The translations under genes were made by a program, and so were the position numbers. This document shows, one piece after another, positions 10,613 to 26,091 of a stretch of 36,138 nucleotides of DNA (within the stretch, counting starts at the first letter, position 1; every line of letters starts with the position of its first letter). Origin of the DNA: Promethearchaeati archaeon (GTDB lineage Archaea > Asgardarchaeota > Heimdallarchaeia > Heimdallarchaeales > Heimdallarchaeaceae). The notes beneath the pieces were generated by a model. It saw nothing but the letters and a program-made list of their open reading frames with translations, ran no database searches and was not told the DNA's origin. Location: positions 1 to 36,138 of the forward strand of contig JABLTJ010000033.1 of NCBI GenBank assembly GCA_013166775.1, read 5' to 3'.

Positions 10613-12115
10613 ATGCTTGATACTGTTTTAGTTGCAAATAGAGGAGAAATTGCAATACGCATAATTAGGGCTTGTCGTTCTCTAAACTTCAAAGCTGTTG
10701 CTCTCTTTGCAGAAGATGATACAAATGCTCTACACGTTAAAATGGCAGATGAAGCATACAGTTTAGGTAAAGGCACAGTTCAAGAAACATATCTCAATAT
10801 TGATAAAATTATCGACATTGCAAAGGATTCAGGTTCCAGTGCGATTCATCCAGGATATGGATTTCTTAGTGAAAGCTCTCTATTGGCAGAGAAAGCAATC
10901 AAAAACAAACTTGTTTTCATCGGTCCTAAACCAAAAGTAATTGACCAACTAGGAGATAAGATGGAAGCAAAACGGATTGCAAAAGAAGTAGATATTCCTC
11001 TTGTTCCAGGATCAGAAGATTATATCTCTACGTTTGAAGAAGCAGAAGAAGTAGCAGAAGAGATAGGATATCCTTTGATGATCAAAGCAGCATTCGGAGG
11101 GGGAGGTAAAGGGATGGAAGTTGTTAAATCACCCTCTACGTTGGAAATAAGCCTCTTGGGATGTCAAACACTTTCTAAAAGATTTTTTGGTAGAAAAGAA
11201 GTTTTTATTGAGAAATTTATCACAAATCCTCGACATATAGAAATTCAGTTTCTTGCAGATAATTTTGGAAATGTTATTCATTTGGGAGATCGAGAATGCT
11301 CAATCCAGAGATCTCACCAAAAAATCATAGAAGAAGCTCCATCATTTTTAAATGACAAAATTAGAAATGAATTAGGAGAGAAGGTTTGCGCATTAGCGGA
11401 GAAAATATCCTATCAGAATGCAGGAACTGCTGAATTCCTTTGGAAAGATAATCATCTTTACTTCAATGAAGTGAATCCCAGAATTCAGGTTGAACATCCT
11501 GTAACTGAGATGATTACAGGTATAGATTTAGTTGTTCAGCAATTAAAAATAGCTAACAATGAGAAACTAACCTTTAAACAGGAAGATATAACCTTTAGAG
11601 GACATGCGATAGAATTTCGAATAAATGCTGAAGATCCTCTTAAATCCTTTTATCCTCAATCAGGAACCGTTACTGGATTGAGTATTCCAGGTGGTAATTC
11701 AATTAGATTCGATACAGCTCTTTATTCTACATATAAATTACCCAATAGCTATGATTCTCTTATTGGTAAATTGATTGTCTGGGGAGAAAATAGGGAGGAA
11801 GTAATAGAAAAATCTCGACACGCACTTCAAGAGTTAACAATCACTGGAATCATCACAAATATAGATCTACATAAAGCGATACTTGAAACTCCTGAATTTC
11901 TATCTAGAGAGATTACTACTGATTTTCTTGAGATTAATAAGATTCAAGAAATCCTTGATCATTATGATAAAATGAAACTTGCAGCTGTTTTTAGAATTTA
12001 TGAAGACAACAAGGACAAGATTCCTTCCATATTAAATGATTTAAGAAGAAAAAACATGGACTATAATAGATGGAAAGATCAAAGCAAATTTGAGCAACAA
12101 CGTAAGTTTCTCTGA
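10613..12115 (+). CDS. accC: Biotin carboxylase subunit of acetyl/propionyl-CoA carboxylase
   Basis: VLVANRGEIA, IHPGYGFLSE, GGGGKGM, RECSIQR, EVNPRIQVEHPVTE, RINAED, YDSLIGKLIV. Confidence 0.95.
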   Translation: MLDTVLVANRGEIAIRIIRACRSLNFKAVALFAEDDTNALHVKMADEAYSLGKGTVQETYLNIDKIIDIAKDSGSSAIHPGYGFLSESSLLAEKAIKNKLVFIGPKPKVIDQLGDKMEAKRIAKEVDIPLVPGSEDYISTFEEAEEVAEEIGYPLMIKAAFGGGGKGMEVVKSPSTLEISLLGCQTLSKRFFGRKEVFIEKFITNPRHIEIQFLADNFGNVIHLGDRECSIQRSHQKIIEEAPSFLNDKIRNELGEKVCALAEKISYQNAGTAEFLWKDNHLYFNEVNPRIQVEHPVTEMITGIDLVVQQLKIANNEKLTFKQEDITFRGHAIEFRINAEDPLKSFYPQSGTVTGLSIPGGNSIRFDTALYSTYKLPNSYDSLIGKLIVWGENREEVIEKSRHALQELTITGIITNIDLHKAILETPEFLSREITTDFLEINKIQEILDHYDKMKLAAVFRIYEDNKDKIPSILNDLRRKNMDYNRWKDQSKFEQQRKFL

Positions 12116-12131
12116 TTTTAGAGGATTTAAC

Positions 12132-12608
12132 ATGAAAAAGAAAGTTACATTTCAAGGAAGAGAGTATATTGTAGAGGTTCTTAAAGACGGAAATATCTCT
12201 GTTGATGGAGAGATATTTACAACCACGATCACTCAAGGAATCCAGAAAGTTTACAAGGTACTAGTTGATGAACACACTTTCACAATAGAAGTAACTGATA
12301 AAGATATTTTCGTAGATGGAGAAGAATCTTCTCTTTCAGTTAAACCACATATCGAAATTCAATCCAAGCTACTGAAAAAACAGCAAGAGGAAAAAAGGAA
12401 AATAATTGCCCCTATACCAGGAAAAATCATTCAAATTCTGGTTAGACAAGGGGAGAAGGTTTCAAGAAATCAAGAATTAATAATCTTAGAAGCAATGAAA
12501 ATGAGAAATCGTATTTTTTCGCCAATTGATGGAAAAATAACACAAATACATGTTAAGAAAGAAGACAATGTTTCTCAGGATCAAACATTAATTGAGATAG
12601 AAAGATAG
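12132..12608 (+). CDS. accB: Biotin carboxyl carrier protein
   Basis: APIPGKI and the biotinylation motif EAMKM. ATG 12132 is preceded by GAGG. Confidence 0.92.
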   Translation: MKKKVTFQGREYIVEVLKDGNISVDGEIFTTTITQGIQKVYKVLVDEHTFTIEVTDKDIFVDGEESSLSVKPHIEIQSKLLKKQQEEKRKIIAPIPGKIIQILVRQGEKVSRNQELIILEAMKMRNRIFSPIDGKITQIHVKKEDNVSQDQTLIEIER

Positions 12609-12610
12609 AA

Positions 12611-13396
12611 TCAGAGTACTTCTTTAAAGAAATCAATGATGTAATTTTTCATATAATCAAAATCCTCTTGTTTTGAGAAATTATGATTTGCTCCTTCTAC
12701 AATCTTGAAGTCCTTATCCAACTCTGAAGGTATTTTTTCATATAATTTCTGAATCCCTTTTTCGGATAATACTTCATCCTTATTTCCTGTAATTACTCTG
12801 ATTGGAATCTGAAGACTAGATGCTAGTTTCATTGGATTATAGAGTTTTACTTGAGATAAAAATTCCTTCTTCAAGTCTTGCACTTTGGGTATTCTCATTT
12901 GTTTGTCTCTTTGCCATAATTGAGCCATTCCATCAAAGATTTTCAGTTTTGGTATTTTTTCCGTATCGTAAACTGGGGATCGAATAGCTAAGCATTTAAT
13001 TCGTCTATCTCTTACAGAGTGACATAAAGCCATTGCACCCCCAAAACTCTCACCAAATAACCCTATTCTTGATGAATCTATCCTAGGATGTTGAGCTAAA
13101 TCAGTAACAATTCTGTTTATGTTTTCGTGTGAAAAATAGTATTCATATTCCCCTGAGCTAGATCTAACTCCTGTATAATCAAAAGCGAAATAAGCTATCT
13201 TATTATCTGTAAAGCTAGAAGCTATCCTTTCCTTTTCCTTTTTGGGATCAGTTCCAGGCATGCCATTTAATCTGATTATCAAGGGATGTTGTTCTTCTTT
13301 TTTTGGCAAATAAAGATAGCCTTTTATTTTGTCTTCTCGAAATTGTATCTCACGCTTTTCTACTTTCAATTTGCTTACTTCCTTTTTCAATCTCAC
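12611..13396 (-). CDS. Alpha/beta-hydrolase, candidate thioesterase or release enzyme
   Basis: GESFGG nucleophile elbow, Asp in GNKDEV, His in GANHNF. Overlaps the 3' end of the megasynthase; alternative TTG start at 13369. Confidence 0.8.
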   Translation of the reverse strand: MRLKKEVSKLKVEKREIQFREDKIKGYLYLPKKEEQHPLIIRLNGMPGTDPKKEKERIASSFTDNKIAYFAFDYTGVRSSSGEYEYYFSHENINRIVTDLAQHPRIDSSRIGLFGESFGGAMALCHSVRDRRIKCLAIRSPVYDTEKIPKLKIFDGMAQLWQRDKQMRIPKVQDLKKEFLSQVKLYNPMKLASSLQIPIRVITGNKDEVLSEKGIQKLYEKIPSELDKDFKIVEGANHNFSKQEDFDYMKNYIIDFFKEVL

Positions 13397-25069: not shown

Positions 25070-25104
25070 AAAAAACTTTATAATTAACCGTTTTTTCAGC
25101 GGTT
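25070..25104. promoter_or_regulatory. Divergent promoter region between pccB and birA: TATA-like box plus a short inverted repeat
   Basis: AAAAACTTTATAATT followed by AACCG-N9-CGGTT (25086-25104). Confidence 0.4.
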
Positions 25105-25127
25105 TAGATATAGTCAGAGTTGCACAG

Positions 25128-25856
25128 ATGAAAACGATAGTTTATGATACTGTTCCATCTACTATGGATGTTGCTTTCAAACATATTATGGAAAACTCAG
25201 AGGAATCATTTGTAATATTAGCAAAAGAACAAACCCTGGGGAGAGGGAGAGAAGAAAATACTTGGTTTTCTCCAAAGGGGGGACTGTATCTAAGCTTCGT
25301 TTTACCAATGAAAGATTCATTAGCGAGAGAAGCTATAGCAATGTTTCACTACTCAACTGCTTTAGCGATAGTTACTTGCTTGAAGAAATTATTTGACCTT
25401 AAAATCAAAATCAAATGGCCAAATGATATTCATTATGAAGGAAAGAAACTCGCAGGACTGCTTATCGAATATATCTCAAGTAAACAAGATTTTATGATCG
25501 TAGGAATAGGAATCAATGTGAATAATAGAACAGAAGAATTTCCTGATCACATACAGAGGAACGCAATTAGTCTTATAGATATTATACGGAAAGAATCGAA
25601 TATCAATAGGATTGTTGAAGAATTAAAGAATCAGATTCTTAGAAACTCATCCTTGACTCTAAATCAAAAATTTCAACACATAGTAAATCAATTCAACCAA
25701 AATTGTATCCAATATATGAAGACTATTGTTTTAAAAAACAATAAAAAATACAATTGTGAAGGAATCAATGTTGCAGGAAGACTAATTTTAACATCTGAAA
25801 AAACAAAAAAGGAATTAGAGATACACGAATCAAAGGATTTGGTATCATACTCTTAA
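25128..25856 (+). CDS. birA: Biotin--protein ligase (no N-terminal HTH)
   Basis: STMD, QT.GRGR...WFSP.GGLYLS, IKWPND, KKLAGLL.E, GIGINV. Confidence 0.92.
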   Translation: MKTIVYDTVPSTMDVAFKHIMENSEESFVILAKEQTLGRGREENTWFSPKGGLYLSFVLPMKDSLAREAIAMFHYSTALAIVTCLKKLFDLKIKIKWPNDIHYEGKKLAGLLIEYISSKQDFMIVGIGINVNNRTEEFPDHIQRNAISLIDIIRKESNINRIVEELKNQILRNSSLTLNQKFQHIVNQFNQNCIQYMKTIVLKNNKKYNCEGINVAGRLILTSEKTKKELEIHESKDLVSYS

Positions 25857-25920
25857 TATTTAAATAGCAAACCTAAAGTTTAAAAATGTATTAGTTTCAT
25901 TTCAAGTAGGTGTAGAATAA

Positions 25921-26091
25921 ATGGCTCCAATATTCATTCCATCAATTTTTAGTGTTTTCATAACAGTTGGATTCTTTGCATTAGTATTTGGTTTACTATC
26001 CTGGGGTTTAAGGAAATTAAATACTAATGTAACAAACAGAAGATTGAGAAGAAAACTTGCGGCTGCAAGTATGTCAAGACAAAATGAATGA
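25921..26091 (+). CDS. Small single-TM protein (56 aa), not in the ORF track
   Basis: MAPIFIPSIFSVFITVGFFALVFGLLSWGLRKLNTNVTNRRLRRKLAAASMSRQNE*. AGGTG SD at 25908-25912 and TATA-like TTTAAAAA at ~25879. Confidence 0.65.
   Translation: MAPIFIPSIFSVFITVGFFALVFGLLSWGLRKLNTNVTNRRLRRKLAAASMSRQNE

What the first reader, a model, noticed from the sequence alone, without database searches (positions are those of the whole stretch)
10613..26091. Self-contained ACP-dependent fatty-acid/polyketide synthesis cluster in a probable Asgard archaeon
Seen: a type I megasynthase sits between accC-accB on one side and pccB-birA on the other, with an overlapping hydrolase. The locus therefore encodes extender supply (carboxylase plus its biotin ligase), carrier activation, condensation, full reduction and a candidate release step. 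Known: archaea build isoprenoid ether lipids and generally lack ACP-based FAS and type I PKS, and the origin of eukaryotic fatty-acyl lipids is an open question. Inference: this is a dedicated malonyl-CoA-fed pathway for fatty acids or long-chain alkyl lipids in a lineage close to eukaryotes. The flanking genes and promoters look archaeal, and no mobility genes border the cluster.
Basis: partly seen in the sequence, partly recalled or inferred. Interest (0 to 1): 0.95.

Follow-up and report, generated by a model that had tools for sequence, protein, structure and literature searches.

The report
Asgard archaeal fatty-acyl megasynthase gene cluster
A Heimdall-group Asgard archaeon carries a native, conserved gene cluster for one giant self-activating fatty-acid/polyketide-type synthase together with the genome's only malonyl-CoA-making carboxylase, machinery that archaea are usually said to lack; its product has never been measured.

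Summary
On this 36-kb contig, which is a whole contig of a 3.85-Mb Heimdallarchaeaceae-like MAG, a 3,356-residue synthase lies between accC-BCCP and carboxyltransferase-birA, and an alpha/beta-hydrolase overlaps its 3' end. Its domains run dead ER, FabK-type ER, KS, AT, second KS, 2 ACP, KR, DH, Sfp-type PPTase.

All catalytic residues are invariant in 107 relatives. Both ACPs carry Thr instead of Ser at the cofactor site, which is the rule across the family.

The cluster is native:
- Its composition matches the genome.
- Contigs from another sample bridge both borders.
- The same gene order occurs in Heimdall, Hod and Loki genomes, including Mb-scale contigs.
- 68 of 399 Asgard species genomes carry the synthase, 26 of 30 in the window's own family.

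The carboxylase, biotin ligase and PPTase are the only ones found in this genome. Metatranscriptome contigs of a close strain cover the synthase operon.

The closest described kind is the product-unknown bacterial "Type R/S secondary lipid synthase" (2011). The family keeps archaeal G1PDH and CarS. It also has PlsY, many DegV proteins and Dak2, which suggests a route for fatty acids into glycerol lipids. The product and its fate are inferred.

This scan noted the same cluster earlier in other Asgard genomes.

The parts
10613..12115 (+). accC, biotin carboxylase (ORF opens at 10550; the conserved N-terminus begins at the Met at 10613)
   Evidence: Pfam Biotin_carb_N, CPSase_L_D2 and Biotin_carb_C. 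NCBIfam acetyl-CoA carboxylase biotin carboxylase, 613 bits. Start.
12132..12608 (+). Biotin carboxyl carrier protein with an EAMKM biotinylation motif (ORF opens at 12090)
   Evidence: Pfam Biotin_lipoyl. Motif seen.
12611..13396 (-). Alpha/beta-hydrolase with a Ser-Asp-His triad (GESFG nucleophile elbow); candidate chain-release enzyme that overlaps the synthase's stop codon
   Evidence: Pfam. All named homologues among 65 are Asgard. Invariant S117, D207 and H238. AF2 pLDDT 92. Foldseek matches lipases, esterases and PKS thioesterase DcsB.
13350..23420 (-). Megasynthase, 3,356 aa: ER'(dead)-ER-KS1-AT-KS2-ACP-ACP-KR-DH-PPTase
22491..23393 (-). N-terminal degenerate copy of the FabK-type ER (ESGGM where the active copy has EAGGH)
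   Evidence: BLASTP of residues 1-325 against 326-700: 23% identity, E 2e-6. This position varies across the family.
21348..22460 (-). FabK/PfaD-type FMN enoyl reductase
   Evidence: Pfam NMO. Matches solved FabK structures at E 1.7e-14. The His is invariant wherever the domain is present.
19872..21287 (-). KS1, PKS/PfaA-type ketosynthase with Cys-His-His
   Evidence: Pfam. Genome scan. Invariant C/H/H. Closest solved structures are cis-AT PKS KS-AT didomains.
18855..19787 (-). Acyltransferase (GHSLG; AFHS motif of malonyl-specific ATs)
   Evidence: Pfam Acyl_transf_1. NCBIfam FabD, 237 bits. Ser and His invariant. The malonyl reading of AFHS rests on general knowledge.
17193..18590 (-). KS2, a divergent FabF-like ketosynthase that keeps Cys-His-His (called CLF in the 2011 catalogue)
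   Evidence: Closest solved structure is FabF, E 1.5e-26.
16788..17015 (-). ACP1 with Thr at the phosphopantetheine position (codon 16920-16922)
16527..16724 (-). ACP2 with Thr at the phosphopantetheine position
   Evidence: Pfam PP-binding. Motif tally.
15018..16310 (-). Ketoreductase (TGGGRG NADPH motif; Ser, Tyr and Asn invariant)
   Evidence: Pfam KR..
14142..14912 (-). PKS-type (double hot-dog) dehydratase; His and ExxxQ conserved
   Evidence: Pfam PKS_DH_N and PS-DH..
13398..13985 (-). Sfp-type 4'-phosphopantetheinyl transferase fused in cis; the only PPTase found in the genome
   Evidence: Pfam ACPS and AASDHPPT_N. Genome scan. Motif residues conserved.
23431..25008 (-). Carboxyltransferase (PccB/12S type), 10 nt upstream of the synthase; the only one found in the genome
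   Evidence: Pfam Carboxyl_trans, 612 bits. Genome scan. NCBIfam mmdA subfamily, below its cut-off.
25128..25856 (+). Biotin-protein ligase BirA, divergent from the carboxyltransferase; the only one found in the genome
   Evidence: Pfam BPL_LplA_LipB. NCBIfam birA_ligase, 140 bits, above its cut-off. Genome scan.

Best explanation
This is a native, vertically kept Asgard gene cluster for carrier-protein-based synthesis of reduced acyl chains.

**Proposed mechanism**
1. BirA biotinylates BCCP. AccC and the carboxyltransferase then make malonyl-CoA (inferred from family membership).
2. The fused Sfp-type PPTase primes the two tandem ACPs of the same polypeptide, probably on Thr (inferred).
3. 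The AT loads malonyl units.
4. KS1 and KS2, KR, the PKS-type DH and the FabK-type ER run repeated full reduction cycles on the single module. This gives a saturated or nearly saturated long acyl-ACP (inferred from the domain set).
5. The co-transcribed alpha/beta-hydrolase then frees or transfers the chain (inferred).

**What is shown**
- The gene content and the intact catalytic residues.
- The conserved gene order across Asgard lineages.
- The archaeal genomic setting.
- The carboxylase, ligase and PPTase being the only ones found in the genome.
- Presence of the operon in RNA libraries.

**What is speculative**
A plausible sink for the chains is a DegV (FakB-like) plus Dak2 kinase step feeding PlsY, which would give acyl-glycerol-phosphate. 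These genes are present in all 31 genomes of the window's family.
For: - **Domain set and operon layout:**
- **Catalytic residues:** KS1, AT, KS2, KR, DH, ER and PPTase residues are invariant in 107 aligned relatives.
- **Best family match:** PfaA (TIGR02813), 866 bits.
- **Conserved order:** birA / CT-synthase-hydrolase / BCCP-accC is kept in Heimdallarchaeaceae, Hod and Loki records. One sits on a 4.36-Mb contig flanked by proteasome, exosome and ribosomal genes. Most of the set is also linked in a divergent Heimdall clade. Bacterial homologues lack the acc genes nearby.
- **Distribution:** 68 of 399 Asgard species genomes carry the synthase, with 26/30, 11/12 and 12/12 in three families.
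- **Single copies:** one carboxyltransferase, one BirA and one PPTase in the genome, all in this locus. No other usable carrier protein was found.
- **Composition:** the contig sits at the median of the genome's contigs, with GC 34.0% in the cluster against 32.9% for the genome.
- **Independent assembly:** contigs at 99% identity or more bridge both cluster borders.
- **Expression:** RNA-library contigs carrying the SNPs of a related strain lie on the synthase, hydrolase and carboxyltransferase.
- **Hydrolase:** its homologues are Asgard-labelled only and it is linked to the synthase in all Asgard loci examined. Its fold resembles lipases, monoacylglycerol lipases and trans-acting PKS thioesterases.
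- **Possible sink:** PlsY in 31/31, DegV in 31/31 (9-19 copies) and Dak2 in 31/31 genomes of the family. No Dak1 was found in this genome, and a DegV gene lies 1.8 kb from a PlsY gene.
Against: - No product has been measured for any member of this family, bacterial or archaeal.
- Both ACPs lack the canonical Ser. Thr-linked phosphopantetheine is undescribed in the papers I could search, and E. coli ACP S36T is reported as unmodifiable (my own knowledge).
- The DH is the polyketide type and a second active KS is present. Bacteria with a normal FAS II also carry homologues, which points to a specialised lipid rather than bulk fatty acids.
- PlsC and PlsX were not found in any of 31 family genomes, so a standard two-acyl phospholipid route is incomplete.
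- G1PDH (31/31) and CarS (29/31) are kept, so archaeal lipids are probably still made.
- The carboxyltransferase's best model is the methylmalonyl/propionyl type and scores below its cut-off, so substrate choice is open.
- The RNA evidence comes from assembled contigs of small libraries, without strand or depth information, and from runs selected with this gene.
Confidence: 0.72

Rival explanations
1. The cluster makes a specialised 'secondary' lipid or polyketide-like long-chain compound rather than general fatty acids for membranes. Examples would be a hydroxy, keto or very-long-chain lipid, a hydrocarbon precursor, or a protective envelope lipid.
For: - The closest described kinds are the product-unknown Type R/S secondary lipid synthases (PMC3098273).
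- The KS2 family occurs in at least 561 species genomes, mostly bacterial lineages, which by general knowledge also have a type II FAS.
- The enzyme has a PKS-type DH, tandem ACPs and two active KS domains.
- Archaeal G1PDH and CarS are retained.
- PlsC and PlsX were not found.
Against: - A full KR-DH-ER set on one iterative module predicts plain reduced chains.
- No tailoring genes (methyltransferase, type III PKS, glycosyltransferase, reductase) are linked in the Asgard loci.
- These genomes invest heavily in fatty-acid-binding DegV proteins and in PlsY.
Confidence: 0.35
2. The carboxylase genes serve central metabolism (propionyl-CoA carboxylation, methylmalonyl-CoA decarboxylation or anaplerosis). 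On this reading they are only neighbours of the synthase, not its dedicated extender supply.
For: - The carboxyltransferase's best NCBIfam model is the mmdA subfamily.
- It is the only biotin enzyme set in the genome, so any other biotin-dependent need must also use it.
- accC-BCCP are on the opposite strand, and no RNA contigs lay on them (weak evidence).
Against: - The linkage of birA, CT, BCCP and accC with the synthase is kept in at least four Asgard clades whose synthases are only 38-58% identical.
- The carboxyltransferase lies 10 nt upstream of the synthase on the same strand.
- Bacterial homologues lack this linkage; bacteria normally keep a housekeeping ACC elsewhere (general knowledge).
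Confidence: 0.12
3. The synthase is catalytically idle because its carrier domains cannot be phosphopantetheinylated (Thr instead of Ser). On this reading the cluster is a relic.
For: - Both ACPs read GIDT.
Against: - Thr sits at this position in about 96% of ACP domains of 107 relatives, with occasional Ser in orthologous domains.
- All other catalytic residues are invariant.
- A PPTase is fused or adjacent throughout the family.
- The 10-kb frame is open in dozens of genomes.
- RNA-library contigs cover the gene.
Confidence: 0.05
4. The contig is a bacterial contaminant, or a chimeric assembly wrongly binned into an Asgard MAG.
For: - The MAG is 88.7% complete with 4.5% contamination.
- The enzyme family is mostly bacterial.
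Against: - The same contig carries Arf, RagA-like, Nre and AFOR genes, and Nre's nearest relatives are Heimdallarchaeaceae.
- The tetranucleotide profile sits at the genome's median.
- Contigs from another sample bridge both cluster borders.
- Syntenic clusters lie on closed or Mb-scale Asgard chromosomes.
Confidence: 0.01

Closest known systems
'Type R' secondary lipid synthase cluster (Shulse & Allen 2011, PLoS One 6:e20146, PMC3098273; Koribacter, Solibacter, Elusimicrobium, Roseiflexus)
   Same: - One pfaA-like gene with the order KS-MAT-second KS ('CLF')-tandem ACPs-KR, plus a PPTase.
- An ACC gene is sometimes linked.
- The product is unknown.
- KS2 of the window is 45-53% identical to homologues in Korobacteraceae, Bryobacteraceae, Chloroflexia and many other bacterial genomes.
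   Different: - The PPTase is fused in cis, and a duplicated FabK-type ER is fused at the N-terminus.
- A PKS-type DH is present. The text of the paper that I read lists none for Type R.
- There are 2 ACPs, not 3-6.
- The 'CLF' keeps Cys-His-His.
- The host is an archaeon.
- A complete carboxylase, BirA and a hydrolase are linked.
'Type S' secondary lipid synthase of Desulfobacterium autotrophicum HRM2 and the ~3,900-aa Desulfobacter 'type I polyketide synthases'
   Same: - A single giant polypeptide with N-terminal FabK-type ER, KS, AT, KS2, tandem Thr-type ACPs, KR and DH.
- Shulse & Allen proposed it as a possible core fatty acid synthase of its host.
- I equate the Desulfobacter proteins with Type S from the description only; this was not tested with the HRM2 sequence.
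   Different: - About 31% identity.
- A terminal reductase-like domain replaces the fused PPTase, and the PPTase is a separate downstream gene.
- No carboxylase, BirA or hydrolase is linked.
PUFA synthase PfaA-E (Shewanella, Moritella, thraustochytrids; NCBIfam TIGR02813)
   Same: - PfaA order KS-MAT-tandem ACP-KR-DH.
- PfaD-like FMN enoyl reductase.
- PfaE-like Sfp PPTase.
- PfaA is the best NCBIfam hit, at 866 bits.
   Different: - The score is below the PfaA cut-off of 1010 bits.
- There is no PfaC (KS-CLF with FabA-type DH/isomerase domains) and no PfaB, so there is no evident way to place cis double bonds.
- All functions are on one chain.
- The ACPs have Thr, not Ser.
Type I fatty acid synthases (animal FAS; fungal and corynebacterial FAS I)
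   Same: - One iterative module with KS, AT, ACP, KR, DH and ER.
- Fungal FAS also has an FMN TIM-barrel ER and a C-terminal PPTase.
   Different: - The domain order and domain families differ: PKS/Pfa-type KS-AT, PS-DH, and an Sfp-type rather than AcpS-type PPTase.
- There is no thioesterase or MPT release domain.
- There is an extra KS and tandem ACPs.
FakA/FakB-PlsY route of Firmicutes (fatty acid kinase feeding acyl-phosphate to PlsY)
   Same: PlsY homologues (182 bits), many DegV/FakB homologues and Dak2-domain proteins are present in all 31 genomes of the window's family. PlsX is absent.
   Different: - The Dak2 proteins are about 220-aa single domains, not full-length FakA.
- No PlsC was found.
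- The link to the megasynthase is only co-occurrence.
- PlsY is also found in many Asgard genomes that lack the synthase.

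Membership tests
Type R secondary lipid synthase (Shulse & Allen 2011) | A pfaA homologue with the order KS-MAT-CLF(second KS)-ACP(3-6)-KR | tested here: met
   KS-AT-KS2-ACP-ACP-KR in that order. The window has 2 ACPs, while relatives have 2-7. ER, DH and PPTase are extra domains.
Type R secondary lipid synthase (Shulse & Allen 2011) | A PPTase encoded directly downstream of the pfaA homologue | tested here: met
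   Present, but fused to the C-terminus instead of being a separate gene. It is a separate downstream gene in a Desulfobacter homologue.
Type R secondary lipid synthase (Shulse & Allen 2011) | The proximal KS groups with Type R KS domains in a phylogeny | tested here: inconclusive
   The named Type R reference sequences were not in my tree. KS2 homologues at 45-53% identity occur in Korobacteraceae, Bryobacteraceae and Chloroflexia MAGs, the lineages of the Type R hosts.
PUFA synthase PfaA (NCBIfam TIGR02813) | Whole-protein score above the curated cut-off (1010.1 bits) | tested here: not met
   866.3 bits.
PUFA synthase PfaA-E system | A partner PfaC with KS-CLF and FabA-type DH/isomerase domains | tested here: not met
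   No such gene lies in the window or in the syntenic Asgard loci. The rest of the genome was not searched for FabA-type domains.
Animal-type type I FAS | An MDR-type ER and a C-terminal thioesterase in the order KS-MAT-DH-ER-KR-ACP-TE | tested here: not met
   Pfam finds an NMO/FabK-type ER at the N-terminus and neither a thioesterase nor an MDR ER domain.
Carrier-protein (ACP) dependent synthase | A conserved Ser in the (D/E)xGxDS motif as the phosphopantetheine site | tested here: not met
   Both ACPs read LGIDT. Thr is found in about 96% of aligned family ACPs and Ser in a few. Whether Thr carries the arm cannot be told from sequence.
Biotin-dependent acyl-CoA carboxylase (AccC/BCCP/PccB type) | A biotin carboxylase, a BCCP with an (A/E)MKM motif, and a 12S-type carboxyltransferase | tested here: met
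Biotin-dependent acyl-CoA carboxylase (AccC/BCCP/PccB type) | Acetyl-CoA as the substrate, so that malonyl-CoA is the product | not testable with these tools
   The carboxyltransferase is nearest the mmdA/PccB subfamily and scores below its cut-off. The AT's AFHS motif suggests malonyl loading (general knowledge).
FakAB-PlsY fatty acid incorporation route | PlsY, a DegV/FakB protein, and a full-length FakA kinase | tested here: inconclusive
   PlsY and DegV are present in 31 of 31 family genomes. Only about 220-aa Dak2 single-domain proteins were found, and there is no Dak1 in this genome.

The most novel reading that the evidence does not exclude
Heimdallarchaeaceae-type Asgard archaea make fatty acids de novo on a threonine-linked phosphopantetheine carrier, using this self-supplied megasynthase. 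The hydrolase frees the chains. DegV proteins with a Dak2 kinase turn them into acyl-phosphates, and PlsY esterifies them to glycerol phosphate. These close relatives of eukaryotes would then build fatty-acyl ester lipids alongside archaeal ether lipids.
Probability: 0.2. Interest if true: 0.92.

Novelty: new variant of a known kind. Interest (0 to 1): 0.78.

Why it matters
Current texts, including a 2024 preprint on archaeal fatty acid synthesis (10.1101/2024.07.05.601840), state that archaea lack FAS I, FAS II, ACP and ACP synthase. They treat the switch from isoprenoid ether lipids to fatty-acyl ester lipids during eukaryogenesis as unexplained.

Here, a complete carrier-protein-type acyl-chain factory with its own malonyl-CoA supply is a conserved and apparently transcribed trait of whole families of Heimdall-group archaea. 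It sits next to an unusual abundance of fatty-acid-handling genes (PlsY, DegV, Dak2).

This gives concrete genes to express, and concrete lipids to look for in cultured Asgard archaea. It also points to a possible new cofactor linkage, phosphopantetheine on Thr.

It does not show that eukaryotic lipids descend from this system. The enzyme family is mainly bacterial and its tree is unrooted.

Tried and rejected
1. **Contaminant or chimeric contig.** Rejected on composition, bridging contigs, archaeal flanks and synteny on closed genomes.
2. **A separate ACP as the real carrier.** The only other PP-binding hit in the genome is an 83-aa protein on contig C80. It has neither Ser nor Thr at the site (it reads DLGMNE).
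3. **A divergent GGGPS behind the weak PcrB hits in relatives.** Those roughly 214-aa ORFs are OMP decarboxylase.
4. **PlsC or PlsX as the acyl sink.** Neither was found in 31 family genomes.
5. **Dak2 proteins as DhaL of a dihydroxyacetone kinase.** No Dak1 is in the genome and none lies next to them. This is suggestive only.
6. **Naming the hydrolase's substrate from its fold.** Foldseek gives generic lid-bearing esterases, lipases and monoacylglycerol lipases, plus two PKS-releasing hydrolases, so it is not specific.
7. **Literature.** No paper was found for:
   - Heimdallarchaeota with fatty acid synthase;
   - Asgard with PUFA synthase;
   - archaea with type I PKS and Heimdallarchaeia.

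   One four-term search was too loose and gave only general FAS papers. The library holds open-access papers only.
8. **RNA cover.** The stretches without RNA contigs (accC-BCCP, birA, flanks) are not evidence of silence. The libraries are small, are contigs only, and were chosen with the synthase gene.
9. **Direction of transfer between bacteria and archaea.** The FastTree of the top 107 hits is rooted at the midpoint only, so it does not decide this.

Full report
**What is there**

The window is a whole contig (C105) of a 3.85-Mb, 115-contig MAG that is 88.7% complete with 4.5% contamination.

| Gene | Coordinates | Strand |
|---|---|---|
| accC | 10613-12115 | + |
| BCCP (EAMKM motif) | 12132-12608 | + |
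| alpha/beta-hydrolase | 12611-13396 | - |
| megasynthase, 3,356 aa | 13350-23420 | - |
| carboxyltransferase | 23431-25008 | - |
| birA | 25128-25856 | + |

- The carboxyltransferase ends 10 nt before the synthase's start.
- The hydrolase's possible starts overlap the synthase's last 20-47 nt. These three genes therefore look like one operon.
- accC-BCCP converge on this operon, and birA diverges from it.

**The synthase**

The domains run as follows:
- a degenerate copy of a FabK-type reductase, 23% identical to the next domain, with ESGGM where the active copy has EAGGH;
- an active FabK/PfaD-type FMN enoyl reductase;
- a PKS/PfaA-type KS, then an AT with GHSLG and AFHS motifs;
- a second, FabF-like KS, then two ACPs;
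- a KR, a PKS-type dehydratase, and an Sfp-type PPTase.

There is no thioesterase domain.

I aligned 107 full-length relatives. The following residues are invariant wherever the domain is present:
- the Cys-His-His of both KS domains;
- the AT Ser and His;
- the KR Ser, Tyr and Asn;
- the DH His and (E/D)xxxQ;
- the ER His;
- the PPTase Asp and Glu residues.

So all the activities of a full reduction cycle look intact and under selection.

The best curated family is PfaA (TIGR02813), but the score is below its cut-off: 866 against 1010 bits. Among solved structures, KS1-AT is closest to cis-AT PKS didomains and KS2 is closest to FabF.

**The odd carriers**

Both ACPs read LGIDT, with Thr at the position of the phosphopantetheine Ser. 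This is not a local error. Of the 120 best homologues, archaeal and bacterial, nearly all have DLGIDTVKQAE-like motifs in 2-7 tandem ACPs, and a few have Ser in the same place.

The genome has no other PPTase and no other carrier with a usable site. The fused PPTase's only evident client is therefore this Thr-type pair. Attachment to Thr is likely but unmeasured.

**Is it really archaeal and native?**

- **Flanking genes.** The contig also carries Arf-family and Gtr1/RagA-family GTPases, Nre, AlkZ and an aldehyde:ferredoxin oxidoreductase. Another contig of the genome has an actin homologue.
- **Matching relatives.** Nre's nearest named relatives are Heimdallarchaeaceae (55-94% identity), then Hel and Loki at about 42-44%. 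The synthase's own relatives run in parallel: Heimdallarchaeaceae at 56-69% and the Loki/Hod group at about 50%.
- **Composition.** The contig's tetranucleotide profile correlates 0.9957 with the genome mean, which is the median of 55 contigs. GC is 34.0% in the cluster, 31.9% in the flanks and 32.9% in the genome.
- **Independent assembly.** Logan contigs of a different sample from the same study match at 99% or more. They bridge AlkZ into accC (9418-11872) and the carboxyltransferase through birA into the next gene (23646-27193).
- **A related strain.** A strain about 96% identical, from another study, holds 10576-26265, which is the cluster. Its contigs run on into unlike sequence at both ends of that stretch.

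I found no support for a chimera.

**Conservation**

The order birA / carboxyltransferase-synthase-hydrolase / BCCP-accC recurs in several Asgard records:
- two Heimdallarchaeaceae records;
- a Hodarchaeota-labelled record;
- a 4.36-Mb Lokiarchaeota contig, where it lies among proteasome, SBDS, exosome, L37ae and Pcc1 genes.

A more distant Heimdall clade (38% identity, 930-kb contig) keeps birA, hydrolase, BCCP and accC beside the synthase. Bacterial homologues in Desulfomonile and Desulfobacter have no carboxylase genes nearby, and Desulfobacter has a separate PPTase gene.

A scan of one genome per Asgard species found the KS-AT-KS2 core in 68 of 399 genomes.

| Family code | Genomes with the core |
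|---|---|
| f1 (the window's own) | 26 of 30 |
| f4 | 11 of 12 |
| f7 | 12 of 12 |
| f19 | 3 of 14 |
| f20 | 12 of 134 |
| f5 | 0 of 22 |
| f12 | 0 of 19 |

Positives include several single-contig genomes and, by name, Candidatus Heimdallarchaeum aukensis.

In a FastTree of KS1-AT-KS2, the window sits in a Heimdallarchaeaceae clade that is sister to a Loki/Hod clade. Two further mostly archaeal clades exist, and a Desulfomonile-type clade is nested among them. The root is only a midpoint and the sample is only the top hits, so the direction of any transfer is open.

**Supply and expression**

The carboxyltransferase, BirA and PPTase of this locus are the only ones detected in the genome. Two small metatranscriptome libraries come from the study that holds the 96% strain. 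They contain contigs that carry that strain's SNPs and lie on the synthase (for example 15207-17153 and 18926-19917), the hydrolase and the carboxyltransferase. This is evidence of presence in RNA libraries, not a measured expression level.

**The hydrolase**

It has an invariant Ser-Asp-His triad. All named homologues among 65 are Asgard, and it is linked to the synthase in every Asgard locus I looked at.

A confident AF2 model (pLDDT 92) resembles several structures:
- a thermostable lipase caught with a monoacylglycerol intermediate;
- feruloyl esterases;
- monoacylglycerol lipases;
- further down the list, the trans-acting PKS thioesterase DcsB and the PKS-associated hydrolase GrgF.

This fits chain release or transfer but does not prove it.

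**Where might the chains go?**

I scanned all 31 genomes of the window's family, G000 included.

| Gene family | Genomes with a match |
|---|---|
| PlsC-type acyltransferase | 0 |
| PlsX | 0 |
| PlsY | 31, about three copies each |
| DegV/FakB fatty-acid-binding protein | 31, 9-19 copies (15 in this genome) |
| Dak2-domain protein, about 220 aa | 31 |
| G1P dehydrogenase | 31 |
| CDP-archaeol synthase (CarS) | 29 |
| GGGPS (PcrB) | 1 |

- This genome has no Dak1, and no Dak1 gene lies next to its Dak2 genes.
- One PlsY gene lies 1.8 kb from a DegV gene.
- None of the four archaeal control genomes has PlsY or DegV.

In Firmicutes, FakA/FakB makes acyl-phosphate for PlsY (general knowledge). A similar route here would need only a free fatty acid, which the hydrolase could supply.

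This is co-occurrence, not proof. PlsY is found in 157 of 399 Asgard genomes, many of which lack the synthase. These archaea probably still make archaeal lipids, so the synthase need not replace them.

**Comparison with what is known**

Shulse and Allen (2011, PMC3098273) catalogued pfa-like "secondary lipid synthases". Their Type R is KS-MAT-CLF-ACP(3-6)-KR plus a PPTase gene, sometimes with an ACC gene, in Acidobacteria, Chloroflexi and Elusimicrobia. Their Type S, from Desulfobacterium autotrophicum, was proposed as a possible core FAS. The products of both are unknown.

A pattern scan with KS2 found at least 561 species genomes, among them Korobacteraceae, Bryobacteraceae, Chloroflexia, Actinomycetota, Myxococcota and Thermoplasmatota. 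The window's enzyme is therefore a fused, self-priming variant of that family with its ER on board.

[quoted passage not shown] A 2024 preprint still states that archaea lack FAS I/II, ACP and ACP synthase. A 2026 paper notes plsY and plsC in Asgard metagenomes (PMC13400652). I found no paper that describes this cluster, its synteny or its product.

Earlier notes of this scan describe the same cluster in other Asgard genomes. I re-tested the points that I use here.

**Verdict**

This is a native, conserved and apparently transcribed Asgard cluster for ACP-type synthesis of reduced acyl chains with a dedicated carboxylase. It is a new variant of a known but uncharacterised enzyme kind. The product, the Thr-linked cofactor, the release step and any tie to membrane lipids or to eukaryotic origins remain to be measured.

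Noticed in passing
Whole genome G000 and its family (31 genomes); for example G000:C54:18649-19698 (G1PDH) and G000:C75:149294-149815 (CarS): The canonical GGGP synthase (Pfam PcrB) was found in only 1 of 31 Heimdallarchaeaceae-type genomes and in neither of the two single-contig ones. G1P dehydrogenase (31/31) and CDP-archaeol synthase (29/31) are present. The weak PcrB hits are OMP decarboxylase. Either the first ether-forming enzyme is very divergent here or the step is done differently.
   Followed up: partly
G000, for example C73:9041-9922, C102:65448-66278, C44:47893-48738, C62:16775-17605: DegV (FakB-like fatty-acid-binding) genes are greatly expanded: 15 matches in this genome and 9-19 per genome across the family. 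There are also 3-5 PlsY homologues and two stand-alone Dak2-domain proteins, but no Dak1, PlsX or PlsC. One DegV gene lies 1.8 kb from a PlsY gene, with GNAT acetyltransferases and a TetR regulator nearby.
   Followed up: partly
G000:C80:14935-15186 (L010:10936-11187, minus strand): An 83-aa stand-alone ACP-like protein (NCBIfam acyl_carrier, 54 bits, below its cut-off) reads DLGMNE where the Ser should be, so it has no cofactor site. It sits directly downstream of a luciferase-like monooxygenase gene.
   Followed up: partly
window 804-1358 (-) and 6941-7525 (-): The same contig carries an Arf-family small GTPase (139 bits) and a Gtr1/RagA-family small GTPase (129 bits). Both are typical eukaryote-like Asgard genes. 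A syntenic Hod-labelled locus also has an Arf gene near the cluster (L005).
   Followed up: no
window 17193-18590 (KS2): KS2 of the window lacks a helical insertion of about 45 residues, between the N-terminal part and the active-site Cys region, that is present in the eight Loki, other Heimdall, Thermoplasmatota and bacterial homologues aligned with it (alignment A1, columns 172-217).
   Followed up: no
window 10455-10576 and about 26265: A related strain (about 96% identical, from another study) holds 10576-26265, the cluster. Its contigs run on into unlike sequence at both ends. The cluster may therefore sit in different surroundings in close relatives, or the flanks may diverge much faster.
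   Followed up: partly
window 26203-27762 (+): A purple-acid-phosphatase/metallophosphoesterase with a C-terminal CARDB domain lies next to birA here and in two other Heimdallarchaeaceae loci (L003, L004). It may be a conserved neighbour of the cluster within this family.
   Followed up: no
L003:23034-25676 and L004:17654-20296: In two Heimdallarchaeaceae relatives, two extra genes lie between accC and AlkZ that are absent at that place in the window. One is a 509-aa B12-binding-domain protein. The other is a 370-aa NAD_Gly3P_dh_N/Octopine_DH-type dehydrogenase.
   Followed up: no
window 4441-6063 (+), 31660-32904 (-), 34243-35364 (-), 27764-29098 (-): The contig carries three NosD/right-handed beta-helix proteins and a 444-aa ORF with no Pfam family. 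There are also four small glyoxalase-fold genes (6065-6481, 6485-6886, 35693-36082, and one in L003).
   Followed up: no
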